Source: an uncultured Parcubacteria group bacterium (GTDB taxonomy: Bacteria; Patescibacteriota; Patescibacteriia; UBA9934; CAMTUG01). Taken from it: a stretch of DNA of 64,000 nucleotides. The first letter of the stretch is position 1. The number at the start of each line of letters is the position of its first letter. Positions 1 through 52,238 of the stretch are shown here, in pieces. Position numbers and translations under genes: made by a program. The stretch spans positions 276,206-340,205 of the forward strand of contig CAMTUG010000001.1 of NCBI GenBank assembly GCA_947084965.1, in the 5' to 3' direction. The notes below the pieces were generated by a model. The model did not search any database and was not told the DNA's origin. It saw nothing but the letters and a program-made list of their open reading frames with translations.

Positions 1-907
1 AAAGATCAAGAAGCACGCCTTTCACCTGTTGATCTTTTCGATCCTTCTCCTGATCCTAGTTTTTATCCCAGGGATCGGATCGAGCTTTGGAACTTCGCAT
101 AGCTGGATTACGCTTGGCGGACTGTTTTCGATTCAGCCGGCCGAGATCGTCAAGCTGACCTTTTTGTTTTATCTCGCGGCCTGGCTGGAAAAGCGCGGCG
201 GGGTTGTCAAAGATCTGGATGGACTGATGCCGTTTCTGATCGCCCTTGGATCGGTGCTTTTTCTGATCGCCCTTCAGCCAGATACCGGCACCATGGCGGT
301 GATCGCGGGGATGTCGTTCATCGTCTACTTTGTCGCCGGCGCTCCGATTCTTCATTTGGCTGGACTTGGAGGGATTGGGGCGGTCTTTTTGCTCATCCTC
401 ATTAAATCATCGACCTATCGCGCCGAACGATTCATGGCTTTTTTACACCCCGAGCTTGATCCCCAGGGGATCGGGTATCATATTAACCAGGCACTTCTGG
501 CGATTGGCTCTGGTGGGTTATTCGGTTTGGGCTACGGCTTGTCGCGTCAAAAGTTCGAGTACCTGCCGGAAGTCGTCGGAGACTCGATCTTTGCAGTGAT
601 CGCTGAAGAGATGGGATTCGTGATCGCCGCCGGTTTGGTCGTTCTCTTCGTCGCCTTTTTGTGGCGCGGCATGAAAATCGCCAAAGCAGCGCCCGACGCT
701 TTTGGGAAATATTTGGTCGTCGGGGTTGTTTCGTGGATTACGATTCAGGCCTTTGTGAACATCGGTTCGATGACCTCGATCATGCCGATGACCGGAGTGA
801 CGCTGCCATTCGTCAGCTACGGCGGAACGTCGCTCGTAGTGTGTATGTCGGCGGTCGGGGTGGTGCTTAGTGTGTCACGTGGAAACTATGGGAATGCAAA
901 ATCCTAA
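1..907 (+). CDS. ftsW: FtsW/RodA (SEDS) family cell-division/elongation protein, 5'-truncated by the window edge
   Basis: Reading frame is open from position 2. C-terminal SEDS-like motifs are present (GYHINQALLAIGSGGLFGLGYGLS, PEVVGDSIFAVIAEE). It sits immediately upstream of murG, as in dcw clusters. Confidence 0.75.
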   Translation, partial: KIKKHAFHLLIFSILLLILVFIPGIGSSFGTSHSWITLGGLFSIQPAEIVKLTFLFYLAAWLEKRGGVVKDLDGLMPFLIALGSVLFLIALQPDTGTMAVIAGMSFIVYFVAGAPILHLAGLGGIGAVFLLILIKSSTYRAERFMAFLHPELDPQGIGYHINQALLAIGSGGLFGLGYGLSRQKFEYLPEVVGDSIFAVIAEEMGFVIAAGLVVLFVAFLWRGMKIAKAAPDAFGKYLVVGVVSWITIQAFVNIGSMTSIMPMTGVTLPFVSYGGTSLVVCMSAVGVVLSVSRGNYGNAKS

Positions 908-1018
908 ATACGAAACACGAAACACGAAACAATCGGAAAGTTCGAATAGGAAATGTTTGAATATTTTTGATTTACGATTTGATTTTGTTTCGTATTTCGT
1001 ATTTCGTATTTCGTATTT
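908..1018. repeat. Intergenic inverted array of heptamer repeats (ACGAAAC x3 ... TCGTATT x4) forming a long imperfect hairpin between ftsW stop and murG start
   Basis: Seen directly: aaatacgaaacacgaaacacgaaacaatcggaaag ... gttttgtttcgtatttcgtatttcgtatttcgtattt. It is related to the element at 6425-6545. Confidence 0.7.
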
Positions 1019-2098
1019 ATGAAAGTCATGCTCACAGGCGGAGGAACGCTCGGTCCGGTGACGCCGCTTTTGGCGATCGCCGAAGTCTGGCGTCGGGAAG
1101 ATATCCGTGCGGAGTTTGTCTGGATCGGCACACCTGGCGGACCGGAACGGAGCGTTGTCGAAGCGGCCGGGATCCCATTTCATCCTTTGTTTGTTCCTAA
1201 GCTTGATCGTTATGCTCCCGGGAAGTGGGTGTTCATTCCCTTTCGGTTGCTTTGGTCGATGAAGATGGCCCTGCACCTGATTCAACGCGAGCGGCCGGAT
1301 GTGGTGGTGACGGCTGGGGGGTATGTCAGCGTTCCGCTCCTGTGGGCCGCCAAGCTGTACGGCATCCCAACCTGGGTGCATCAGCAAGATGTGCGCGCCG
1401 GACTTGCCAATAAACTCATGGCGCCGTTTGCGACCAAGATTTCCGTCGCTTGGACGCGGTCGCTGCACGCGTTTGATGAGAAAAAGACGATCCATATCGG
1501 GAATCCGGTACGGGATTCTGTTTTGCACGGATCGCAGCAACGCGGGGCGGAGCGATTCGGATTTGATCTGTCGCGTCCAACGGTTCTGGTTTTTGGTGGT
1601 GGCACGGGCGCGGCCTGGATCAATCACGCGATCGCTCAGGTCGTTCCTGAATTGTGTATGACCGCGAATGTTCTGCATATCACCGGGCGAGGGAAGTTGA
1701 CGTCGGTCGAGCCTCGACCAAACTATCAGGCCGTAGAGTTACTCACGACCGAGATGCCGGATGCGCTCGCTCTCGCCGATCTGGTCGTCTGTCGTGCTGG
1801 CATGGCCACGATTTCCGAACTTGCCGCATTAGCCAAACCGGCGATGGTGATTCCGATCCCAGATTCGCACCAAGAAGATAACACCGCCGCCCTAGAAGAA
1901 CTCAGTGCTGCGGTGATTGTTCACCAGGCGCAGACAACGCCGCAGATGCTCTTGCAGCACATCCTTGGTTTTCTTGAGAATCCAGAAGAACGACGTAAGC
2001 TCGGTGCGCGACTGCACGCCGCGTTACCAACCACGGACGTTGCCCTCAAACTGGCGCATCATTTGGAAGCTATGGTAAAACAAGGATCCTCCCGCTAA
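1019..2098 (+). CDS. murG: UDP-N-acetylglucosamine--N-acetylmuramyl-(pentapeptide) pyrophosphoryl-undecaprenol GlcNAc transferase MurG
   Basis: N-terminus MKVMLTGGGTLGPVTPLLAIAE, GT28 architecture, 359 aa, adjacent to ftsW. Confidence 0.85.
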   Translation: MKVMLTGGGTLGPVTPLLAIAEVWRREDIRAEFVWIGTPGGPERSVVEAAGIPFHPLFVPKLDRYAPGKWVFIPFRLLWSMKMALHLIQRERPDVVVTAGGYVSVPLLWAAKLYGIPTWVHQQDVRAGLANKLMAPFATKISVAWTRSLHAFDEKKTIHIGNPVRDSVLHGSQQRGAERFGFDLSRPTVLVFGGGTGAAWINHAIAQVVPELCMTANVLHITGRGKLTSVEPRPNYQAVELLTTEMPDALALADLVVCRAGMATISELAALAKPAMVIPIPDSHQEDNTAALEELSAAVIVHQAQTTPQMLLQHILGFLENPEERRKLGARLHAALPTTDVALKLAHHLEAMVKQGSSR

Positions 2099-2433: not shown

Positions 2434-3114
2434 ATGGGACTCAAGCATTTAGCAATGATCCTGGACGGCAACCGTCGGTGGGCAAAATCTAAGGGCTTAC
2501 CGACGCTCGAAGGCCATCGCCGCGGGTACGATAATGTGAAGACGATCGGGCTCGCTGCCCTCGAACGTGGGGTTGAGCAGTTCACTGTTTTTGCCTTTTC
2601 CACGGAAAACTGGAAGCGCTCCGAAGAGGAGGTTGGTTATTTGATGGATCTGTTGCACCACGCCCTCACGGCCGAAGTTGATTTTTACATGAAGCACAAC
2701 GTGCGCTTACGCGTGGTCGGTCGGCGCGAAGGATTGTCGGAAAAGATGATCACGGCGATTGGTGCGGCAGAGGCAAAGACGGCAGGGAACACGGCAGGAC
2801 AGATCAATTTGTGTATCAATTACGGCGGGCGGCCAGAGATCGTCGATGCGGTCAAGGCGCTCGTGGCCGACGGGGTTAAGCCAGAGGACGTGACCGAGGA
2901 TTTGCTCGCTTCGAAGATGTGGATGGCCGGGATCCCGGACCCTGATCTGATCGTGCGTACTTCGGGTGAACAGCGTCTGTCTGGGTTTCTCACGTGGTCA
3001 GGGGTGTACAGCGAACTATTATTTGTAGATAAACACTGGCCGGATTTTTCCGTTGAAGATTTAGATGCTGCGCTTGCCGAGTTTGATCAGCGTGGACGAA
3101 GGTTTGGCAAGTAA
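2434..3114 (+). CDS. uppS: Isoprenyl transferase (undecaprenyl diphosphate synthase)
   Basis: MGLKHLAMILDGNRRWAKSKGLPTLEGHRRGY; length 226 aa, typical of cis-prenyltransferases. Confidence 0.85.
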   Translation: MGLKHLAMILDGNRRWAKSKGLPTLEGHRRGYDNVKTIGLAALERGVEQFTVFAFSTENWKRSEEEVGYLMDLLHHALTAEVDFYMKHNVRLRVVGRREGLSEKMITAIGAAEAKTAGNTAGQINLCINYGGRPEIVDAVKALVADGVKPEDVTEDLLASKMWMAGIPDPDLIVRTSGEQRLSGFLTWSGVYSELLFVDKHWPDFSVEDLDAALAEFDQRGRRFGK

Positions 3115-3119
3115 GGGGA

Positions 3120-3151
3120 CTTGTCAGTGCCAGTTGCTTTTGATACGTTCC
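3120..3151 (+). promoter_or_regulatory. Putative sigma70 promoter of the GC-rich cassette gene (TTGTCA-17-TACGTT)
   Basis: Hexamers read directly upstream of an AAGGAG SD and the ATG at 3172. Confidence 0.35.
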
Positions 3152-3171
3152 TGCCGTCCCAAAGGAGTCCC

Positions 3172-3741
3172 ATGCCCCCTCGTTCTTCCGCCCCCGCCGG
3201 TCTCTCCTGCTCCTTCTGCACCAAGGCCGCCAACACCCCTGAGGTGAAGAAGGTCATCGCCGGCGTAAACGTCTACATCTGTGACGTCTGCGTCAAGGGG
3301 ATGGTCGCGCTCGTCGTTGTCCAACGTCCGGCTGACGCATCCTACCTCCTGCGTCGGCCCGAGCTCGATCTGCGCACCTTCACCATGACCGTCACGGGGT
3401 CGACGACGCTCGGTGACGTGCTCGGCTGGTACCTGCGTGTCTACCGTACGTTCCCTCACCTCCCCAAGGAGACCGGGACGGTCATCACGAGTGCTGCCTG
3501 CCGATTCTGCAGCCGGGTCGACCAGGTCGTGATCAGCCGCCTCGCGGCCAACATCTGCCTCGACTGCCTGCGGGACGTCGCCAAGATCCTGCTCAAGGAC
3601 GACCCTGCGCCGTCCTACCTGGTGCGTGATGCGGTGCTCGACTTGTGCCCGTTCGCCACCCTCCGCCTCGACGTGGATGAGCCGCACACCATCGGCGATG
3701 TTCTCAACGCCTACACGACCGCATCTCCGCCGCTGAACTGA
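3172..3741 (+). CDS. Small protein with two ClpX-type C4 zinc-finger motifs and no AAA+ domain. Extreme GC3 codon usage unlike the backbone
   Basis: AAGGAG SD 5 nt upstream. Motifs LSCSFCTKAANTPEVKKVIAGVNVYICDVCV and CRFCSRVDQVVISRLAANICLDCL resemble the ClpX N-terminal zinc finger. Third codon positions are almost all G/C, whereas the antisense ORF (3124-3756) lacks that signature. Confidence 0.7.
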   Translation: MPPRSSAPAGLSCSFCTKAANTPEVKKVIAGVNVYICDVCVKGMVALVVVQRPADASYLLRRPELDLRTFTMTVTGSTTLGDVLGWYLRVYRTFPHLPKETGTVITSAACRFCSRVDQVVISRLAANICLDCLRDVAKILLKDDPAPSYLVRDAVLDLCPFATLRLDVDEPHTIGDVLNAYTTASPPLN

Positions 3742-3829
3742 TCTTCGGCAGCTCACCTCGGCCGCCGATCTATACGGAACGCCGCTCGGAATACTCCCGG
3801 GCGGCGTCTGAACTTAATTGAATTTCAAA

Positions 3830-3857
3830 CCGCGCTCGTCCAGGACGGAGAGCGCGG
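3830..3857. terminator. Bidirectional hairpin terminator between convergent genes
   Basis: ccgcgctc-gtccaggacgga-gagcgcgg, followed by atttgatt. Confidence 0.6.
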
Positions 3858-3863
3858 ATTTGA

Positions 3864-5048
3864 TTACGGTCGTTCCTTGGGGCGGAGGAAGTAGAGGACG
3901 ATCGCGAGAATGACGAGCAGTCCGCCGGAAGCGAGCCAGACGTCAGCGATGTTCGCCGGCGTGTCCTCGCGGCCGGACATGTAGAAGGCGAGTGAGAAGA
4001 GGACGATCGCGGCGCCGATCTCTTCCATCAGCGACTGCAACGATCCGAACGTCGAGCGGTATTCGCTCGTAACGTGGTGGTTGGTGTAGCTGTCGAGGAG
4101 CGGTCGGAACGCCCCGCGGCCGACTTCGTGCACCACGCCCATCACGAGGACCAGTCCAAGCCCAGGAACTTGCCCGATGAGCGCCAGGCCAACCCCAGCG
4201 ACGACGAGGGCGATCATCACGGCTTTGGCTTCGGCCCCTGAAGCGATCTTCGCTTTGCGAATGATCATCCCGGCGATGAAGAGCGCCAGATAGAGCGGGC
4301 TCCAGATCAGTCCGAGCTGGCTGGTGGCCACAAACTGCTCGAAGTACTTCGGCCAGTAGTGGTTGAACGCCACGACCAGACCGCTCACCATCCCTACCGC
4401 CACGGCCCAGCGCAGCGCCGAGCTGTTGCGCAGGGCATTGACGCTCCGCTTGAGCGCCTCTTTCTCGCTGACCTTTTCGTGGGCCAGTACTTCGCCGTCG
4501 CCGTTCATGTAGCGGGTGACGACAAAGAGTCCGACGAGAGCAAAGAACGCACTAGCGATCCACGGCCACCGAAGGCCGAAGGTCGATCCGATCCACGAGC
4601 CAAAGATCGCCGCCGGTGCGGCCAGCAATCCTTTGACGATCGCGGCGTTGGCGAACGTCTGCCCCTTTTCGTTTTCGCGATTGTGCAACTTCAAGGCGTC
4701 GACGATCCAGGCCTGCTGAATCCCCGAGAGGAAGGTGAAGGCCAAACCGTTGACCACTTCGGCCGCCAGCGCCCACCAGACGTTCTCTGCCAGGAAGTAG
4801 ATCGCGTTGCCCAGAGCGAAGATCAGGAAGCCGATGCGCAAGGACCAGGCGCGGGAGCGGGCGTCGGCCCACATCCCGGTCGGGACTTCGAAGAGGATGA
4901 TCGCCACCCAGAACCAACCGTTGACCATCGAAACCTGGCTCAAGGTGAGCCCGATCGAGGTGAGGAACGGAACGTAGGTCGCCGTGGTGACCATGAACAT
5001 CAGGCCCAGGGCGGCGGAGAAGAGGATGTAGGCGCGGGAAGGGGACAT
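3864..5048 (-). CDS. MFS-type transporter (12 predicted TM helices), GC-elevated
   Basis: Hydrophobic helices throughout, GGAGG SD upstream, ~60% GC with a high-GC3 5' half. Confidence 0.65.
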   Translation of the reverse strand: MSPSRAYILFSAALGLMFMVTTATYVPFLTSIGLTLSQVSMVNGWFWVAIILFEVPTGMWADARSRAWSLRIGFLIFALGNAIYFLAENVWWALAAEVVNGLAFTFLSGIQQAWIVDALKLHNRENEKGQTFANAAIVKGLLAAPAAIFGSWIGSTFGLRWPWIASAFFALVGLFVVTRYMNGDGEVLAHEKVSEKEALKRSVNALRNSSALRWAVAVGMVSGLVVAFNHYWPKYFEQFVATSQLGLIWSPLYLALFIAGMIIRKAKIASGAEAKAVMIALVVAGVGLALIGQVPGLGLVLVMGVVHEVGRGAFRPLLDSYTNHHVTSEYRSTFGSLQSLMEEIGAAIVLFSLAFYMSGREDTPANIADVWLASGGLLVILAIVLYFLRPKERP

Positions 5049-5311
5049 AGAGCCTCCGGAGAGTCAAAAAAAGAACACGACCCGGGATGATTCCCAGGTC
5101 GTGCGAGGACTCATTATGCAAAAAATCATGCAATCAGTGCTCGACCACCTGAGAAATACAACGCTTTCGGCATATCGCAGCCGACGAACGCGCGTCCGGT
5201 AATGTGGAGAGACTGATAATTCATACTGTTTTTAGTAGACAGGACTTTGTGAGTGATGTCAAGTGACGGAGTCTATATAAAAGCCAGCGGTTACGGTAAA
5301 CTGTCCCCAGT

Positions 5312-6424
5312 ATGAAAATCGCCTTTATTGGGCAGAAAGCAATGGGAGTTGGAGGGCGAGGGGGTGGCATTGAACGGCATGTGACCGAAATTGCTACGCG
5401 GTTGGTTCGGCGCGGGCACGAAGTAACGGTCTATGCACGCAAGCTGTACATGCCAGACAAGGTGCGTGAATTTCGTGGGGTGAGGATTGTGTATGTGCCG
5501 ACGATCTACACCAAAAATTTTGAAGCGATCATTCACACATTTTTTTCAACGCTCCACGCCCTGTTTAAAAATTTTGATGTCTATCACTATCACGGCGTCG
5601 GTCCGGCAACGCTTGCTTGGATGCCGCGGCTTTTTCGTCCTCACGCTCGGGTGGTCGTCACCTTTCATTCGCAAGATCGTTTTCACAAAAAGTGGGGATG
5701 GTTCGCACGGAACTATCTGCACTTCGGCGAATGGGCCAGTGTCTGGTTTCCGCACGCTTGCATCGCGGTGTCTCATGTGATTCAGGTTTATGCGCGTAAT
5801 GTGTATAAACGCCAGGTGATTTACATTCCAAACGGTGCAGATGTGCAGAGCGTTTCGTCTGATCGTGAACTGGAAACGTTCGGCCTGACCAAAGGCGAAT
5901 ACATCGTCAACGTTGGGCGCATCGTGCCGCAGAAAGGACTGCAGTATCTCCTTGCGGCGTATCAAAAACTCGAGACGCAGAAAAAGCTTGTGATTGTCGG
6001 GACTCCAAGTTTTTCTGAACGCTACGCCGATGAATTAAAACGGATGGCGGCAGGAAATCCGAACATCCTTTTTGTTGGACATCAAGTTGGGGAAGCATTG
6101 CGACAGCTTTACGGCCATGCGTATCTTTTCGTGCAGCCGTCTGAATCAGAAGGCCTTTCGATCGTCGTGTTAGAAGCGATGAGCTACGGCCTTGCTCCTT
6201 TGGTTAGCGACATCCCGGAAAATCTTGAAGCGATTAAGAATACGGGATTCACCTTTAGTAATCGTGACGCGGATGATTTAGCGATGCGGTTGCGACAGCT
6301 CCTGCAGCATCCTGAATTGGTTGTTGAGATGGGCGTCAAGGCGCGCGAGCTGGTGCGCACCGATTTTAATTGGGATGTTATTGCGGATCGCACGGAAGGG
6401 ATTTATGTTTCGATTCGGCATTAG
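5312..6424 (+). CDS. Glycosyltransferase family 4 (GT4/GT-B)
   Basis: N-terminus MKIAFIGQKAMGVGGRGGGIERHVTEIATRLVRRGHEV, plus an E-x7-E-like C-terminal region. Confidence 0.75.
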   Translation: MKIAFIGQKAMGVGGRGGGIERHVTEIATRLVRRGHEVTVYARKLYMPDKVREFRGVRIVYVPTIYTKNFEAIIHTFFSTLHALFKNFDVYHYHGVGPATLAWMPRLFRPHARVVVTFHSQDRFHKKWGWFARNYLHFGEWASVWFPHACIAVSHVIQVYARNVYKRQVIYIPNGADVQSVSSDRELETFGLTKGEYIVNVGRIVPQKGLQYLLAAYQKLETQKKLVIVGTPSFSERYADELKRMAAGNPNILFVGHQVGEALRQLYGHAYLFVQPSESEGLSIVVLEAMSYGLAPLVSDIPENLEAIKNTGFTFSNRDADDLAMRLRQLLQHPELVVEMGVKARELVRTDFNWDVIADRTEGIYVSIRH

Positions 6425-6545
6425 TATGAAAATACGAAATCCGGAAATCGAAATTCGAAACAAATCAGAATCGGAAAGGGAAAATTTCAAACCTTTCACT
6501 TTTTTCTCTTTTCCGATCGTTTCGAATTTCGATATTTGAATTTCG
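6425..6545. repeat. Intergenic inverted-repeat element with TTCGAA(A/T)-type units forming a long hairpin. Related to 908-1018
   Basis: aatcgaaattcgaaac ... gtttcgaatttcgat; tcggaaag ... cttttccga. It shares aatcggaaag and acgaaa units with the ftsW-murG element. Confidence 0.7.
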
Positions 6546-30290: not shown

Positions 30291-30307
30291 GATTTTGAAA
30301 TGCCGAA

Positions 30308-30333
30308 CCCCACCTGCGTTCCAGGTGGGGTTT
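30308..30333. terminator. Bidirectional terminator hairpin
   Basis: ccccacctg-cgttc-caggtgggg followed by ttt. Confidence 0.6.
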
Positions 30334-30348
30334 CGTGCGTCAGGTCGG

Positions 30349-30726
30349 CTAGCGTGCGACGACCACGTAGATGCCGTCGCGGTACTGACCGAGGAGGTAG
30401 AAGATCAGACCCTCGACCGTGATCCGCAGCGGGCGCAAGTGCGGCTCGAGCGGGACCGTGCCAAGGAGCATCCTTTCGACCGTGGCGGTGGTGCCGCCCA
30501 GCCGCAGGATGTGCACGGCGCTGATGGCGGGGTGGACCTGGGCCTGCAGCGTCCGGATGATCGCTGTGATGATCGGGTTGGGCGTGCCAGGCTTCGTGCC
30601 GGCCAGCTCGCCAGACGCGAGCTCCTCGCGCCGGATCGCGAGGGTGACCATGATCGGTCGGATGCGCAGCTCGGCCTCGGGCCCGAGCGTGGTACGAAGG
30701 TGGTTGCGCAGTCGGGCGGTGTCCAT
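30349..30726 (-). CDS. Hypothetical 125-aa protein, extreme GC3 (cassette gene)
   Basis: GGAG SD 9 nt upstream; putative promoter TTGACG-17-TATGAT. About 93% G/C at third positions but ~45% at second positions. Overlapping antisense ORFs were rejected. Confidence 0.6.
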   Translation of the reverse strand: MDTARLRNHLRTTLGPEAELRIRPIMVTLAIRREELASGELAGTKPGTPNPIITAIIRTLQAQVHPAISAVHILRLGGTTATVERMLLGTVPLEPHLRPLRITVEGLIFYLLGQYRDGIYVVVAR

Positions 30727-30791
30727 GGCAGATCTCCGTTGGGGACCCTGGATCATATGCGTTTTTGACGTTCGCGTCAAGGATTGCTAGG

Positions 30792-41343: not shown

Positions 41344-41688
41344 ATGTCCGAGTCCGTCACCGCCTTCCGTCCCGATCCGGCCAAGATCTACGAGATCACG
41401 CTCCTCGAGGGCGACGTGGATCAGATCTGGAACCTCGCCCACGAAGGGGGTCGTTCGATCCTGCTTCTCGTGCGAGACCAGGCCGATCCCGCCGCGCCCG
41501 AGCAGGGGCTCTCCCTCATCCTCTACTCCGTCGCCTGGGAGGGCGGCGACAAGGAAAACCACCCGAACGAGGTCGTCGTCCGCGGCCGCATCCACGGCCG
41601 TACCGCGGACGAGCCGAACCCGGTGATCGGGTTTTGCTGGGACGACAAGTCCCGGACCGGTCTCCTCAACGTGGTCCTCCCGGTCTAG
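41344..41688 (+). CDS. Hypothetical 114-aa protein, extreme GC3 (cassette gene)
   Basis: AAGGAG SD 5 nt upstream of ATG 41344. G/C-ending codons dominate. Followed by terminator 41744-41802. Confidence 0.6.
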   Translation: MSESVTAFRPDPAKIYEITLLEGDVDQIWNLAHEGGRSILLLVRDQADPAAPEQGLSLILYSVAWEGGDKENHPNEVVVRGRIHGRTADEPNPVIGFCWDDKSRTGLLNVVLPV

Positions 41689-46627: not shown

Positions 46628-47005
46628 ATGGCACAGAACGCGGTTGCCCTTAGTGCGAAGTATTTTGTGGTCGATCTCATCGGTGGGATCGTCCTTTTTC
46701 CGGTCTGGTGGTACACGCGCGGATTGGTGAAAATGGGGAGCGGTGTGTTGGACTTTTGGACAGCGGAGCGCAGTTCGCTAGCGATCGGTGTTTGGATCAA
46801 GAACATCTTCACCCCCATGTACGGTACGCACGATATCGCTGGGCGATTGATCAGCTTTTTCATGCGCATCGTGCAGATCATCGGTCGAACGATTGTGCTC
46901 CTGATTTGGACCGTGCTCTTGCTCCTCTTTTTTGTGGCCTATCTCGTTTTTCCTGCCTTTGTCGCTCTGGAAGTAGTCTATCACCTTGTTGGATCGCTTT
47001 TATGA
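46628..47005 (+). CDS. Small membrane protein (3-4 TM), translationally coupled (ATGA) to the ClpB-like gene
   Basis: Hydrophobic; stop overlaps ATG 47002. Confidence 0.5.
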   Translation: MAQNAVALSAKYFVVDLIGGIVLFPVWWYTRGLVKMGSGVLDFWTAERSSLAIGVWIKNIFTPMYGTHDIAGRLISFFMRIVQIIGRTIVLLIWTVLLLLFFVAYLVFPAFVALEVVYHLVGSLL

Positions 47006-49593
47006 AGGGACTTGTTGTAAACAGTAAGCCGTTCGCCTTCACGGAACGCGTCGATGAAGTATCTATCATGTTGAAGCACGCACGTGATGGGGTGCAGAAA
47101 CTGATCGATCTCGTTGTGTTAGCTGGTGTCGTGCTCCTTCTGGCAATTTTTGCTCTCGGTACATTCGTGCTTAGCGATCCGGCAGAGATGATTGAACTTC
47201 TCTTTTGGACGACCCCAAGCGCTTATCTGTTCTGCTTCTGGTCTGCCATCTTTTTGATTCTGTTCTTCATCTATCGTCGGCTTGAGGCACGCCGCGAACA
47301 CGCCGTTCTGCCGACGCTCGAGCCTGACGCCGCTGCAGCGCTCGCACCAACCGATCTTTCTCACGGCCACAATATTCGCCAGTTCATGGATGACGAGGCG
47401 GTCAAATCCGTTGAACAAGGATTTGAAACGGCGCATAAGTTCAAACATGGAAGCGTTGATGCCCTTCACCTGTTTATCGGATCGCTGACCACACGTGAGG
47501 CATCCATCGTCTTTGCGCGCCTCGGATTATCATTCGATACGATGCGTGATGCGGTTGTGCGTCGACTTGCTTCCTTGCCCGCGGCGGGTGGAACGACTCT
47601 CGGTGACAACGCGCAGAAGATTTTGGCGCAGGCCATGAAGTCCGCTATCGTCCATCGACGCCGTCACATTACCCCGGTTGAGCTGATGATCGCTGCGTAT
47701 GACGCAGACGAATTTTTACAGGAGTTATTGTACAGTAAAAAAATTGAACGCCAGGATTTCGAAAACGTCTTGCAGTGGATTCGCATCAACGACGAACAGC
47801 GCCGCCGGATCAAAGAGTTTTCTCGGGCCGCGTCCCTCAAGCCAAAGGGGCCGGTCAACCGTGCCTACACGTCGGTGGCGACACCGTTTCTTGATTCTGT
47901 TTCGGACGACCTGACGCGTGCCGCGGCTTGGGGGCAGTTGCCAATGCTGGTTGGACGCGCTCAGGAATTGACCTCTGTGTTTCGGGCGATCGAAGGGGGG
48001 AATCAGAGCGTTGTTTTGGTTGGGCTACCAGGAGTGGGAAAGGACGCGTTGATTTCGGGGATCGCCGAAGCGATGGTTGAAGAGCGCGTGCCAGAGATTT
48101 TACAAGACAAGCGCTTAGTGAAAATTTCTCTGCCACACATTATTGCCGGATCAAGCGGTACGCAGGCTGAGGCTAAGCTTCTGCAAGCTCTGCGCGAAAT
48201 TGCGATTTCTGGAAACATCGTTACGGTCATCACCGACATCGACCAGATGATCGGGCAGGGGCTCGATCTTTCGGCAATTTTGTCGCAAGAGCTGGATCGT
48301 CGCTACACGTTTGTGATCGCTACCACAACGCCGGAAGGGTATGCCAGCAAGGTGGAGCGCTCGGTGCTCGGACAGAAGCTGATTAAAATTGACGTTCAAG
48401 AGCCGAAGCAAAACGAAGCCATTCATATCCTTGAAGCCAAGATCGGATCGATTGAATATAAGCACAACGTCGTCTTTACGTATGAAGCGGTCAGCCGTGT
48501 CGTTTCCTTAACCGATCGCTACATGCACGATCGTCAGTTGCCAGAAAAGGCGATCGAAGTGGCTCAAGAAGTTGCCCTCGAGGTGCATAAAAAGAAGGGC
48601 GACGGAGCGCGGGTGGTTGGGGAAGATGTTGCCGCGATCATCAGCGAAAAAACGCGTGTGCCGGTGACCGAAGTCGCCAGCGAGGAAAAAGAGAAGTTGC
48701 TGCACTTGGAAGAGCGGATGCACGGCCGTGTCGTTGGTCAAGACGAGGCGGTCAAAGCGATTGCGGCGGCGTTGCGTCGCGCCCGTGCGGACTTGCGTTC
48801 CCAAGATCGTCCGATCGCCAACTTTTTGTTTCTTGGGCCAACCGGGGTCGGAAAAACGGAGCTGGCCAAAACGGTCAGTGAAGTGTACTTCGGCAGCGAA
48901 GGGGCGATGCTTCGCTTTGATATGTCGGAATATCAGGAGCAGGGGAGCATTAATCGTCTGATCGGTGCGGCCGGGCAAGGGGGGTTGATTACTGAAGCGG
49001 TGCGTAAAGCTCCGTTCTCTTTATTGCTCCTCGATGAACTTGAGAAGGCGCATCCAGATATTTTGAACCTCTTCCTGCAAGTGATGGATGACGGCCGTTT
49101 GACCGACGGCGCGGGTCGCACGATCGACTTTACCAACGTTATTTTGATCGCCACGTCAAACGCCGGGGCGCAGTATCTGCAGCAGGCGGTCCGTCAGAAC
49201 ATTCCAATGGAGCAGATCAAGGAGAACCTGATCGAAAACGAACTCAAGGGCATTTATCGTCCAGAGTTTTTGAACCGCTTCGATGGAATTATCGTTTTCA
49301 AGCCGCTTGGGATGGAAGAGGTTGTGCAGATCGCTTATCTCATGATTTCTAAAGTTACGGAACGATTGAAGGCGAAGGGGATTACGTTCCGCGCCAGCGA
49401 CGAAGCGGTGTACGAATTGGCGCAAAAAGGATTTGATCCAAAGTTTGGTGCGCGTCCGTTGCGCCGAGTGATTCAGGAAGAGGTCGACAACGCCGTGGCG
49501 ACCGTCCTTTTGAAAGGGGAAGTGGGACGTCGCGATACGCTGGTGCTTGAAGCAGGGGGCAAGATTCACGTCGAAAAGGCGGCCGAGCTGTAG
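47002..49593 (+). CDS. Membrane-anchored ClpB/ClpC-type AAA+ protein with Clp_N domain, degenerate D1 (GVGKD, no Walker-B Glu) and canonical D2
   Basis: Two N-terminal TM helices. Clp_N repeat (HLFIGSLTTREASIVFARLG). D1 GLPGVGKDALISGIAE / TVITDIDQ. D2 GPTGVGKTELAKTV / LLLLDELEKAHPD. The ORF-track N-extension from 46708 was rejected. Confidence 0.75.
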   Translation: MKGLVVNSKPFAFTERVDEVSIMLKHARDGVQKLIDLVVLAGVVLLLAIFALGTFVLSDPAEMIELLFWTTPSAYLFCFWSAIFLILFFIYRRLEARREHAVLPTLEPDAAAALAPTDLSHGHNIRQFMDDEAVKSVEQGFETAHKFKHGSVDALHLFIGSLTTREASIVFARLGLSFDTMRDAVVRRLASLPAAGGTTLGDNAQKILAQAMKSAIVHRRRHITPVELMIAAYDADEFLQELLYSKKIERQDFENVLQWIRINDEQRRRIKEFSRAASLKPKGPVNRAYTSVATPFLDSVSDDLTRAAAWGQLPMLVGRAQELTSVFRAIEGGNQSVVLVGLPGVGKDALISGIAEAMVEERVPEILQDKRLVKISLPHIIAGSSGTQAEAKLLQALREIAISGNIVTVITDIDQMIGQGLDLSAILSQELDRRYTFVIATTTPEGYASKVERSVLGQKLIKIDVQEPKQNEAIHILEAKIGSIEYKHNVVFTYEAVSRVVSLTDRYMHDRQLPEKAIEVAQEVALEVHKKKGDGARVVGEDVAAIISEKTRVPVTEVASEEKEKLLHLEERMHGRVVGQDEAVKAIAAALRRARADLRSQDRPIANFLFLGPTGVGKTELAKTVSEVYFGSEGAMLRFDMSEYQEQGSINRLIGAAGQGGLITEAVRKAPFSLLLLDELEKAHPDILNLFLQVMDDGRLTDGAGRTIDFTNVILIATSNAGAQYLQQAVRQNIPMEQIKENLIENELKGIYRPEFLNRFDGIIVFKPLGMEEVVQIAYLMISKVTERLKAKGITFRASDEAVYELAQKGFDPKFGARPLRRVIQEEVDNAVATVLLKGEVGRRDTLVLEAGGKIHVEKAAEL

Positions 49594-51632: not shown

Positions 51633-52100
51633 TCAGCCGTAGAAGCCGAGGCGTTGGTAGAGGTGGGGTGGGAAGGAGACGCTGGGGGTCAGCGCCTGGT
51701 CCTCTGTGGTCGAGGTGGCGACGACCTGGTTGGTGCCGAGGTCCGTGTTCACGAAGAACTGGAACTCGACCGCTCCGGTCCCGAAGAAGGTGGAGATCAC
51801 GGCCACGCCCTGCTCGTTCGAGCGGACGTACCCGTAGTAGTCGAACCCGCTGTAGCCGATCAGCGGGATCTCGAGCTTGAACCCGACCAGCGCGCAGAAC
51901 GGTCGGTCGCCCCTGAGGACGATGTTCTGCATGCTGCGCTCGAGCCCTTCCGCCTTCGCACCGCGGTAGGTGTAGCGGACCATCTGGTTGGAGTACTTGA
52001 TGAAGTCGGCCATGAAGCCGAACTTCTTCAGGAATTCCTTGCTGAGGAAGACCGCCAGTGTGGTGGAGAGGACGAGGCAGGTGGTGAGGAGAACGGTCAT
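51633..52100 (-). CDS. Secreted/membrane-anchored hypothetical protein (155 aa), extreme GC3 (cassette gene)
   Basis: GGAAGG SD upstream. Near-consensus promoter TTGACT-17-TATATT, whose + strand reverse complement lies at 52146-52174. Terminator hairpin gaagcgcg...cgcgcttc plus T-run after the stop. The antisense ORFs 51621-52190(+) and 51502-52155(-) were rejected. Confidence 0.65.
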   Translation of the reverse strand: MTVLLTTCLVLSTTLAVFLSKEFLKKFGFMADFIKYSNQMVRYTYRGAKAEGLERSMQNIVLRGDRPFCALVGFKLEIPLIGYSGFDYYGYVRSNEQGVAVISTFFGTGAVEFQFFVNTDLGTNQVVATSTTEDQALTPSVSFPPHLYQRLGFYG

Positions 52101-52238
52101 CGGAACCTTCCTGTAAGCCGCGGCGGGGATGCCATGCGGGGGATGAATATAGCATATTTTGGGCAAAAAGTCAACGGTTCAGAAAGGTGATTTCTACAAA
52201 AAGTAACAAAAAACAGCCCTTTCTTAACGAAAGAACTG

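What the first reader, a model, noticed from the sequence alone, without database searches (positions are those of the whole stretch)
3172..3741. Stand-alone protein with two ClpX-type zinc fingers, encoded in a high-GC island after uppS
The ORF contains two motifs, C-S-F-C...IAG..VYICD-C and C-R-F-C...AANICL-C. These closely resemble the ClpX N-terminal C4 zinc-binding domain, which mediates adaptor and substrate recognition. No AAA+ module is present. A free tandem ClpX-ZBD could act as a decoy or regulator of the ClpXP substrate-delivery network. It is convergent with a GC-rich MFS transporter gene, and both share a bidirectional terminator.
Basis: partly seen in the sequence, partly recalled or inferred. 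Interest (0 to 1): 0.6.

Follow-up and report, generated by a model that had tools for sequence, protein, structure and literature searches.

The report
Orphan tandem ClpX-type zinc-finger protein
A small gene in a Patescibacteria (CPR) genome encodes a protein made of two diverged copies of a "ClpX-type zinc finger plus unknown 50-residue domain" module; it is a real but unusual member of a common, unstudied class of free-standing ClpX zinc-finger proteins, and a role in ClpXP protease control is plausible but untested.

Summary
The ORF at 3172-3741 (+) is real and encodes 189 aa. It has GC3 0.84 in this frame and an AAGGAG ribosome-binding site, and the same gene was called in an independent assembly. 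Residues 11-50 are a true ClpX-type C4 zinc-binding domain (ZBD): Pfam PF06689 scores 36.6-38.9 bits against a cut-off of 27, and the AF2 model (pLDDT 96) superposes on E. coli ZBD crystal structures at 1.0-1.7 Å.

The second finger (C110/C113/C129/C132) is degenerate. It has no Pfam hit and a 3-residue deletion in the hairpin. It is recognisable only because the whole protein is an old internal duplication of a ~95-aa module (ZBD plus a ~50-aa domain of unknown fold).

The full architecture is an orphan. Only one other protein (P0112) in about 15 billion shares the module. Free-standing ZBD proteins without an AAA+ module are common, however: at least 115 clusters have two to four ZBDs, and PGAP already names them "ClpX C4-type zinc finger protein".

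The host is a Uhrbacteria-like Patescibacterium. The gene sits at a synteny breakpoint after uppS. The neighbouring MFS gene is conserved in a relative, so this is not a simple two-gene island.

A decoy or adaptor role towards ClpXP is the best guess (about 0.3). No clpX gene lies in the window. Interest is modest.

The parts
3162..3167 (+). Shine-Dalgarno-like AAGGAG, 4 nt upstream of the ATG
   Evidence: Read directly from the sequence. It supports the ATG at 3172 over the upstream in-frame TTG at 3121. The Logan gene call is also 189 aa.
3172..3741 (+). CDS of the 189-aa tandem ZBD protein (P0001)
   Evidence: GC3 0.84 in this frame; Pfam hit; identical gene in the same context on an independently assembled Logan contig, L001.
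3202..3321 (+). Finger 1 (residues 11-50): canonical ClpX-type C4 zinc-binding domain. Ligands are C13, C16, C37 and C40.
   Evidence: PF06689 scores 36.6-38.9 bits against a cut-off of 27. phmmer against PDB gives E=1e-5 to 5e-5 for E. coli ZBD entries 2DS7/2DS5/1OVX. AF2 pLDDT is 91-96. Foldseek gives TM 0.80-0.83 and rmsd 1.0-1.8 Å over 40 residues to 2DS5/6/7.
3322..3456 (+). C-domain 1 (residues 51-95): unknown fold, ending in the conserved helix T-L-G-D-V-L-x-x-Y
   Evidence: It aligns with C-domain 2 (score 55; 0 of 5000 shuffles reach it) and with P0112 (4 of 5000). No Pfam, NCBIfam or PHROG hit. AF2 pLDDT is 41-79, with a helix at 80-93.
3487..3597 (+). Finger 2 (residues 106-142): degenerate C4 zinc ribbon derived from a ZBD. 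Ligands are C110, C113, C129 and C132. It has a 3-residue deletion in the hairpin.
   Evidence: Internal BLASTP of half 1 against half 2 gives E=5e-9. There is no Pfam hit and the custom HMM gives 8.2 bits. AF2 pLDDT is 65-85. Foldseek finds only weak matches, to uS14/eS29 zinc ribbons at the top and to 2DS5 at rank 20 (TM 0.61).
3598..3738 (+). C-domain 2 (residues 143-189), with the motif H-T-I-G-D-V-L-N-A-Y
3775..3810 (+). GC-rich hairpin downstream of the zinc-finger gene; candidate terminator for the + strand gene
   Evidence: RNA fold of 3739-3866 gives -60.8 kcal/mol, z=-5.3. It is not followed by a clean U-run and was not called by the consensus scan.
3825..3863 (-). Hairpin immediately downstream of the MFS stop codon; candidate terminator for the - strand gene
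   Evidence: Its MFS-proximal arm (CAAACCGCGC) is conserved in the relative L004.
3864..5048 (-). Convergent MFS transporter gene (394 aa). It is a neighbour, not demonstrably part of the same unit.
   Evidence: MFS_1 scores 88.7 bits. GC3 is 0.84. A 63%-identical orthologue sits in the same position in L004.

Best explanation
Shown: 3172-3741 is a real, lineage-specific gene of a Uhrbacteria-like Patescibacterium. Its 189-aa product has no signal peptide or membrane segment evident by reading the sequence (no predictor was run). It is an ancient internal duplication of a ~95-aa module, each copy being a ClpX-type C4 zinc ribbon followed by a ~50-aa domain of unknown fold. That domain ends in a conserved T-[IL]-G-D-V-[LV]-x-x-Y helix. 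Finger 1 is a canonical ClpX ZBD. Finger 2 keeps the four cysteines but has lost the A-G-P-x-V-Y hairpin. The protein belongs to the large, uncharacterised class of free-standing (often tandem) 'ClpX C4-type zinc finger proteins'.

Inferred mechanism: the ClpX ZBD is an obligate dimer that binds adaptor and substrate tails on a hydrophobic patch around F16 and I46. Both positions are kept in both fingers here (F15/L47 and F112/I139). The two fingers in one chain most likely act as a zinc-stabilised protein-protein interaction unit that offers a ClpX-N-domain-like docking surface without an unfoldase. Such a unit would either sequester ZBD-dependent adaptors and substrates, or pair with ClpX's own ZBD. 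Either way it would tune what is delivered to ClpXP. The C-domains would supply the specificity for a second, unknown partner.

Confidence in the anatomy is about 0.9. Confidence in the ClpXP-linked mechanism is about 0.3.
For: The gene is real:
- The codon-position GC pattern favours the + frame.
- There is an AAGGAG site before the ATG.
- The identical gene and neighbours occur on an independent Logan assembly.
- Both repeats retain four Cys and the GDV..Y motif despite only 32% identity, which implies purifying selection since the duplication.

Finger 1 is a ClpX ZBD:
- PF06689 scores above the gathering cut-off.
- It hits the solved E. coli ZBD structures by sequence.
- The AF2 model has pLDDT 96 and superposes at 1.0-1.8 Å, TM 0.80-0.83.

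The module is duplicated:
- BLASTP of the two halves gives E=5e-9.
- The C-domains alone score 55, and 0 of 5000 shuffles reach that.

The class exists:
- 133 non-self HMMER hits are short ZBD proteins. Of these, 115 have two to four ZBDs and only 2 have a Walker A motif.
- PGAP uses the name 'ClpX C4-type zinc finger protein' on a Salmonella P1-like plasmid.
- PHROG families 6797, 12435 and 5259 match the ZBD: 6797 and (weakly) 12435 match this protein, and all three match P0112. Stand-alone ZBD ORFs occur on IMG/VR contigs.

Precedent for the mechanism:
- Isolated ZBD in trans inhibits RssB-mediated sigma-S degradation by ClpXP (PMC7226468).
- The F16/I46 patch is the common docking site for lambda-O, SspB, RssB and trigger factor (PMC7804408).
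- The alignment shows both positions conserved in both fingers.
Against: - No clpX or clpP gene lies in the 64-kb window. The only Clp-type ATPase is an atypical 961-aa Hsp100 at 46708-49593. Whether the genome has ClpX at all could not be checked.
- Finger 2 is so diverged that a symmetric ZBD-like pseudo-dimer is doubtful.
- AF2 gave no confident arrangement of the two fingers (pTM 0.33), and the C-domain fold is unresolved.
- The F in CxFC is invariant across the family and may be structural rather than a sign of retained ligand binding.
- No member of the stand-alone ZBD class was found to be functionally characterised in the literature searches.
- The gene context (uppS, MFS, GT4) gives no link to proteolysis.
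Confidence: 0.4

Rival explanations
1. The ZBD fold is reused here as a generic small zinc-ribbon interaction or regulatory module with no connection to ClpXP. Examples would be binding a transcription factor or sigma factor, a nucleic acid, or a cell-envelope enzyme encoded nearby.
For: - Stand-alone ZBD proteins occur in many architectures, including ones with C-terminal HTH-like tails (P0145, P0158, P0181, P0195) and fusions to sigma factors (PMC11119718, listed).
- There is a weak Gin (anti-sigma-G) similarity of 17.8 bits, and finger 2's model resembles uS14/eS29 zinc ribbons.
- The gene is probably co-transcribed with uppS: the gap is 57 bp, and no terminator or promoter was found in it.
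- No clpX gene is in the window.
Against: - Finger 1 is 48-50% identical to the E. coli ClpX ZBD and keeps the residues of the adaptor-docking patch.
- The Gin and uS14 similarities are below threshold and rest mainly on the cysteine pattern.
Confidence: 0.35
2. It is recently transferred cargo from a high-GC donor (for example an actinobacterial host or its phage). It is either in transit and decaying, or used by the episymbiont against the host's ClpXP.
For: - GC3 is 0.84 against about 0.6 for neighbouring core genes.
- The gene is absent from all 80 related uppS loci.
- It lies at a synteny breakpoint, where the relative L004 has a tRNA-Asp.
- Phage and plasmid versions of stand-alone ZBDs exist.
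Against: - High GC3 also marks accessory genes that are conserved in synteny with relatives: the MFS gene, and the 114-aa gene after uvrC. It is therefore not evidence of recent transfer.
- There is no donor-like homologue anywhere. The only module relative is 41% identical.
- There is no integrase, no direct repeats and no tRNA remnant.
- No signal peptide is evident in the sequence, so there is no sign of export.
- Both repeats are intact.
Confidence: 0.12
3. The ORF is not a functional gene. It would be a chance open frame in GC-rich DNA, with the antisense ORF 3124-3756 as the real gene.
For: - Both strands are open across the region, as is common in GC-rich DNA.
- The protein is an orphan.
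Against: - The Pfam hit is above the curated threshold.
- A significant internal repeat is visible only in this frame.
- The GC3 signature favours the + frame.
- The antisense product has no family hit and an Arg/Gly/Glu-rich low-complexity composition.
Confidence: 0.03

Closest known systems
[quoted passage not shown]
   Same: Finger 1 has the same C4 ligand pattern (CxxC-x20-CxxC against x18) and the K-[LV]-I-A-G...V-Y-I-C-D-x-C-V signature. It is 48-50% identical and has the same predicted fold (rmsd 1.0-1.8 Å). The equivalents of the F16/I46 docking patch are retained.
   Different: There is no linker or AAA+ unfoldase behind it. There are two fingers in one chain, and the second is degenerate (x15 spacing, hairpin deletion, below the Pfam threshold). 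Each finger is followed by a ~50-aa domain that is absent from ClpX.
Stand-alone 'ClpX C4-type zinc finger proteins' (PGAP product name, e.g. WP_140903071.1 on Salmonella plasmid NZ_CP100711.1; PHROGs 6797, 12435 and 5259; metagenomic tandem forms such as P0005 with two ZBDs and P0004 with four)
   Same: It is a short protein with one or more ZBDs and no ATPase. Tandem arrangement is common: 115 of 133 hits have two or more ZBDs, with 40-184 residues from the start of one ZBD motif to the next, against 97 here. Their function is uncharacterised.
   Different: In those proteins the repeats are all canonical ZBDs joined by short, low-complexity linkers. Here the repeat unit is ZBD plus a structured-looking conserved C-domain, and the second ZBD has decayed. 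Only P0112 (152 aa, a single module) shares the C-domain.
ClpXP adaptors and anti-adaptors (SspB, RssB, IraD/IraM/IraP, CpdR)
   Same: The proposed role is to modulate which cargo reaches ClpX through the ZBD docking site. Isolated ZBD in trans is a proven inhibitor in vitro (PMC7226468).
   Different: There is no sequence or fold relationship. Those proteins bind the ZBD, whereas this protein would mimic or partner it. There is no functional evidence here.

Membership tests
Pfam PF06689 zf-C4_ClpX | HMM score at or above the gathering cut-off (27 bits), finger 1 | tested here: met
   36.6 bits in the whole protein and 38.9 bits in half 1, covering residues 12-43.
Pfam PF06689 zf-C4_ClpX | HMM score at or above the gathering cut-off, finger 2 | tested here: not met
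   No hit at E<=10 for residues 96-189. An HMM built from 33 ZBDs gives 8.2 bits against a best of 7.2 in 2000 shuffles. Homology to finger 1 rests on the whole-module repeat (E=5e-9).
Pfam PF06689 zf-C4_ClpX | Four cysteine zinc ligands, as CxxC ... CxxC | tested here: met
   C13/C16/C37/C40 and C110/C113/C129/C132, read from the sequence. Spacing is 20 and 15 residues against the modal 18.
Pfam PF06689 zf-C4_ClpX | Fold matches the solved ZBD | tested here: met
   Finger 1 has pLDDT 91-96, TM 0.80-0.83 and rmsd 1.0-1.8 Å to 2DS5/6/7. Finger 2 is inconclusive: pLDDT 65-85, 2DS5 at rank 20, TM 0.61.
Pfam PF06689 zf-C4_ClpX | Zinc binding and dimerisation | not testable with these tools
   Needs metal analysis and SEC-MALS or a structure. 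AF2 gave no confident inter-finger packing (pTM 0.33).
ClpX (AAA+ unfoldase; NCBIfam NF003745 / TIGR00382) | AAA+ module with Walker A/B and an equivalog-level score | tested here: not met
   Scores are 35.6 and 27.9 bits against cut-offs of 359 and 371, and only the N-terminal ~40 profile positions match. There is no Walker A motif in the ORF.
Stand-alone / tandem ClpX C4-type zinc finger proteins (descriptive class) | One or more ZBDs in a short protein without an ATPase domain | tested here: met
   189 aa with two fingers. Comparable proteins appear.
ClpXP adaptor / anti-adaptor / decoy (functional class) | A cognate clpX/clpP in the same genome, and physical interaction with ClpX or its cargo | not testable with these tools
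   No clpX gene is in the 64-kb window. The rest of the 476-kb contig was not retrievable. There is no interaction assay.
Gin / CsfB anti-sigma factor (PF10764) | HMM score at or above the gathering cut-off (27 bits) | tested here: not met
   17.8 bits, E=0.0034, with no stretch passing on its own.
Ubiquitin-like beta-grasp (idea for the C-domain) | Significant sequence or fold similarity | tested here: inconclusive
   TUG-UBL1 scores 12.1 bits. Shuffle tests against ubiquitin give p of 0.04-0.2. AF2 confidence is too low for a fold search.

The most novel reading that the evidence does not exclude
Tandem stand-alone ZBD proteins, this one included, would be single-chain mimics of the ClpX N-domain dimer. 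They would act as a widespread, unrecognised layer of trans-acting control over ClpXP substrate delivery. Here, in a reduced CPR genome, the degenerate second finger and the private C-domains would retarget the mimic to a lineage-specific client. The preponderance of two- and four-ZBD proteins over three-ZBD ones (102 and 9 against 4) would reflect intramolecular pairing.
Probability: 0.15. Interest if true: 0.65.

Novelty: new variant of a known kind. Interest (0 to 1): 0.33.

Why it matters
The ClpX ZBD is the docking hub for adaptors (SspB, RssB, CpdR) and several substrate classes. Free ZBD domains inhibit delivery in vitro. Natural free-standing ZBD proteins are numerous in genomes, phages and plasmids, yet the literature searches here found none that is characterised.

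If they are genuine regulators of ClpXP, they would be a new class of protease modulators. This locus would then show how such a protein diversifies, by duplication, decay of one finger and gain of a private domain.

For this particular gene the value is limited. It is an orphan in an uncultivated CPR bacterium, its context is uninformative, and its link to ClpX is untested.

Tried and rejected
1. Word-indexed search of 5.8 billion proteins with the full protein found only itself. Full HMMER against 1.84 billion representatives found no second full-length relative. A profile of the module (A1) added only P0112.
2. PADLOC gave no hit, so there is no sign of a defence system. tblastn against phages gave no match. 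Plasmids gave only ZBD-level matches.
3. AF2 was run on the full length and on module 2. Only finger 1 is confident, the C-domain fold is unresolved, and there is no inter-finger geometry. Further fold searches on the low-confidence parts were therefore not run.
4. I tested whether the C-domain is a relic of the ClpX linker and the start of the AAA+ domain. Shuffle tests against three ClpX N-terminal fragments were not significant (p 0.02-1.0 over nine tests), so I rejected this.
5. I tested whether the C-domain is ubiquitin-like. The result is not significant, and the question is left open.
6. I looked for an integrated element at a tRNA-Asp site. No tRNA remnant, repeats or integrase were found, so I rejected this.
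7. I considered treating high GC as proof of recent transfer. I rejected it because syntenic, conserved accessory genes share the same bias.
8. Rfam found only tRNAs in the window.
9. Literature searches for characterised stand-alone ZBD proteins, and for ClpX in Patescibacteria, gave nothing usable.
10. The context of P0112 (a PadR gene and an HhH-GPD glycosylase gene on a 2.3-kb contig) is uninformative.

Full report
**What is at the coordinates**

The + strand carries an uninterrupted ORF with ATG at 3172 and stop at 3739-3741, encoding 189 aa. An AAGGAG site lies 4 nt upstream of the ATG (3162-3167). The ORF starts 57 bp after uppS (2434-3114; Prenyltransf 254 bits). It is convergent with an MFS transporter gene (3864-5048, -; MFS_1 88.7 bits).

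An antisense ORF (3124-3756) is also open, but the codon-position GC settles the frame. The + frame shows 0.62/0.48/0.84 and the antisense ORF 0.81/0.49/0.62. The antisense product has no family match. The identical gene with identical neighbours was called on an independently assembled Logan contig, L001.

**The two fingers**

Finger 1 (C13, C16, C37, C40) is a bona fide ClpX-type zinc-binding domain:
- PF06689 scores 36.6 bits in the whole protein and 38.9 bits in the first half, against a cut-off of 27.
- phmmer against PDB sequences finds the E. coli ClpX ZBD entries 2DS7, 2DS5 and 1OVX at E=1e-5 to 5e-5.
- In an AF2 model, residues 11-50 have pLDDT 91-96. They superpose on 2DS5/2DS6/2DS7 with TM 0.80-0.83, rmsd 1.0-1.8 Å and 48-50% identity.

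Finger 2 (C110, C113, C129, C132) is a different matter:
- Pfam reports nothing for residues 96-189, even at E<=10.
- An HMM I built from 33 ZBD segments gives it 8.2 bits, against a best of 7.2 among 2000 shuffles.
- It has 15 residues between the Cys pairs, against the modal 18. It lacks the A-G-P-x-V-Y hairpin (alignment).
- Its AF2 model is only moderately confident (pLDDT 65-85). That model resembles generic zinc ribbons as much as it resembles the ZBD.

**The protein is an internal duplication**

The two halves align over 79 residues (32% identity, E=5e-9). The similarity is not confined to the cysteines. The ~50-residue segments that follow each finger align on their own with a score that 0 of 5000 shuffles reach. 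The fingers alone are only marginal (71 of 5000).

Each repeat is therefore ZBD plus a C-domain. The C-domain ends in a conserved helix, T-[IL]-G-D-V-[LV]-x-x-Y. It has no Pfam, NCBIfam, PHROG or PADLOC match, and AF2 does not resolve its fold.

Two ideas about its origin were tested by shuffling, and neither is significant:
- a relic of the ClpX linker and first AAA+ helices;
- a ubiquitin-like half-domain.

**How rare is it**

- The word-indexed search of 5.8 billion proteins returned only the protein itself. Its cluster is a singleton.
- Full HMMER against 1.84 billion representatives returned 133 other proteins, all matching through the ZBD only.
- One of them, P0112, shares the whole module. 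It is 152 aa and comes from a 2.3-kb Logan contig beside a PadR gene and a glycosylase gene. It is 41% identical over 81 residues to repeat 1 and 28% over 97 to repeat 2, including the H-P-T-I-G-D-V motif.
- A profile of the module found no further relatives.

**The architecture class is not rare**

- Of the 133 hits, 115 carry two or more ZBD motifs: 102 have two, 4 have three and 9 have four. Only 2 have a Walker A motif. The median length is 149 aa.
- The ranking favours multi-ZBD proteins because domain scores add. The proportion is therefore biased, but the count is a valid lower bound.
- NCBI's pipeline already names such proteins 'ClpX C4-type zinc finger protein'. One example is a 120-aa product on a Salmonella P1-like plasmid.
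- PHROG families 6797, 12435 and 5259 are ZBD-containing phage proteins; 6797 and (weakly) 12435 match this protein, and all three match P0112.
- Three of 21 IMG/VR matches are stand-alone ZBD ORFs; the others are full-length ClpX.
- I found no paper that characterises a stand-alone ZBD protein.

**Host and locus**

The closest uppS loci (81% identity) are Patescibacteria MAGs, with Uhrbacteria further out.

In relative L004 the order is ftsW, murG, tRNA-Lys, uppS, tRNA-Asp(GTC), MFS(-), a 223-aa orphan(-), GT4. Its MFS and GT4 genes are 63% identical to those in the window. The MFS gene is thus syntenic and old. The zinc-finger gene occupies exactly the slot where L004 has the tRNA-Asp. No tRNA remnant, repeat or integrase is present in the window.

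L002 and L003 have unrelated genes after uppS, so this is a synteny breakpoint. No ZBD-type ORF occurs in any of the 80 related loci.

**The 'high-GC island'**

The GC rise is real: 62-65% in 3150-5100 against 53% for the window. It is not a clean signature of recent transfer, for three reasons:
- The MFS orthologue in L004 also has raised GC3 (0.72 against about 0.52 for its neighbours).
- A 114-aa gene after uvrC has GC3 0.89 in the window. Its homologue in L003 sits in the same position with GC3 0.72.
- Other small orphans share the bias.

Raised GC3 seems to be a standing property of accessory genes in this clade. I cannot explain it.

**Terminators**

The 122-bp convergent spacer folds far better than shuffles (z=-5.3 and -4.8). 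It contains two strong hairpins, at 3775-3810 and 3825-3863, separated by an AT-rich stretch, plus a weaker hairpin at 3745-3768. It is not one shared stem. The MFS-side hairpin is partly conserved in L004. The consensus terminator scan called none of them.

**How it most likely works**

Established knowledge:
- The ClpX ZBD is a dimer.
- A hydrophobic patch around F16 and I46 docks lambda-O, SspB, RssB and trigger factor (PMC7804408).
- Isolated ZBD added in trans inhibits RssB-mediated sigma-S degradation by ClpXP (PMC7226468).

In this protein both patch positions are kept in both fingers: F15/L47 and F112/I139. My best reading is a zinc-stabilised interaction protein that presents a ClpX-N-domain-like surface without an unfoldase. 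It would compete for ZBD-dependent cargo or adaptors, or partner with them. The C-domains would provide a second specificity.

This step is inference. No clpX gene lies in the window, and the only Clp-type ATPase is an atypical 961-aa Hsp100. AF2 gave no inter-finger geometry (pTM 0.33). The gene context says nothing about proteolysis. I put this mechanism at about 0.3, roughly level with the rival that the fold is reused for something unrelated to ClpXP.

**Verdict**

The object is a new variant (duplicated ZBD plus private domain, with one decayed finger) of a known but uncharacterised kind. A specialist would find the orphan module mildly interesting and the abundance of tandem stand-alone ZBD proteins more so. 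This locus by itself does not make the question testable. Interest is 0.33.

Noticed in passing
window 3172-3741, 3864-5048, 41344-41688, 51633-52166(-), 30300-30760; L004 10458-11129(-); L003 9326-9670: A set of small accessory or orphan genes has GC3 of 0.84-0.91 against 0.55-0.65 for core genes. Two of them (the MFS gene and the 114-aa gene after uvrC) are conserved in synteny in relatives, where they also show raised GC3. At 30.3-30.8 kb the GC3-high frames contain stops, so this may be a pseudogene. The cause of this persistent compositional class is unexplained.
   Followed up: partly
window 5065-5104 (- strand), just upstream of the MFS start at 5048: A 13-bp-stem hairpin followed by a T7 run lies directly before the GGAGG and ATG of the MFS gene. 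It matches the intrinsic-terminator consensus. It may be a leader attenuator controlling the transporter.
   Followed up: no
window 907-1019 and 6424-6536: Two intergenic spacers contain long AT-rich imperfect inverted repeats built from runs of ACGAAA(T/C) heptamers. They may be a repeated palindromic element or unusually long terminators.
   Followed up: no
L004 8722-8797: The relative's uppS-MFS spacer holds a tRNA-Asp(GTC) exactly where the window has the zinc-finger gene. The window has no tRNA-Asp in its 64 kb.
   Followed up: partly
window 46708-49593: A 961-aa double-ring Hsp100 (ClpA/B/C-like) scores well below every NCBIfam equivalog cut-off: ClpB 512 bits against 1232, ClpA 468 against 993. 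It has about 230 extra N-terminal residues.
   Followed up: no
proteins P0003-P0135: Among stand-alone ZBD proteins, two- and four-finger forms (102 and 9) far outnumber three-finger forms (4). This would fit intramolecular pairing of fingers that mimics the ClpX ZBD dimer. The numbers are small and the ranking is biased.
   Followed up: partly
L003 6384-7850; L002 8718-9377: The position after uppS is a synteny breakpoint in this clade. There is a 488-aa membrane-like orphan in L003, a methyltransferase-like gene in L002, a tRNA plus MFS in L004, and the ZBD gene plus MFS in the window.
   Followed up: partly
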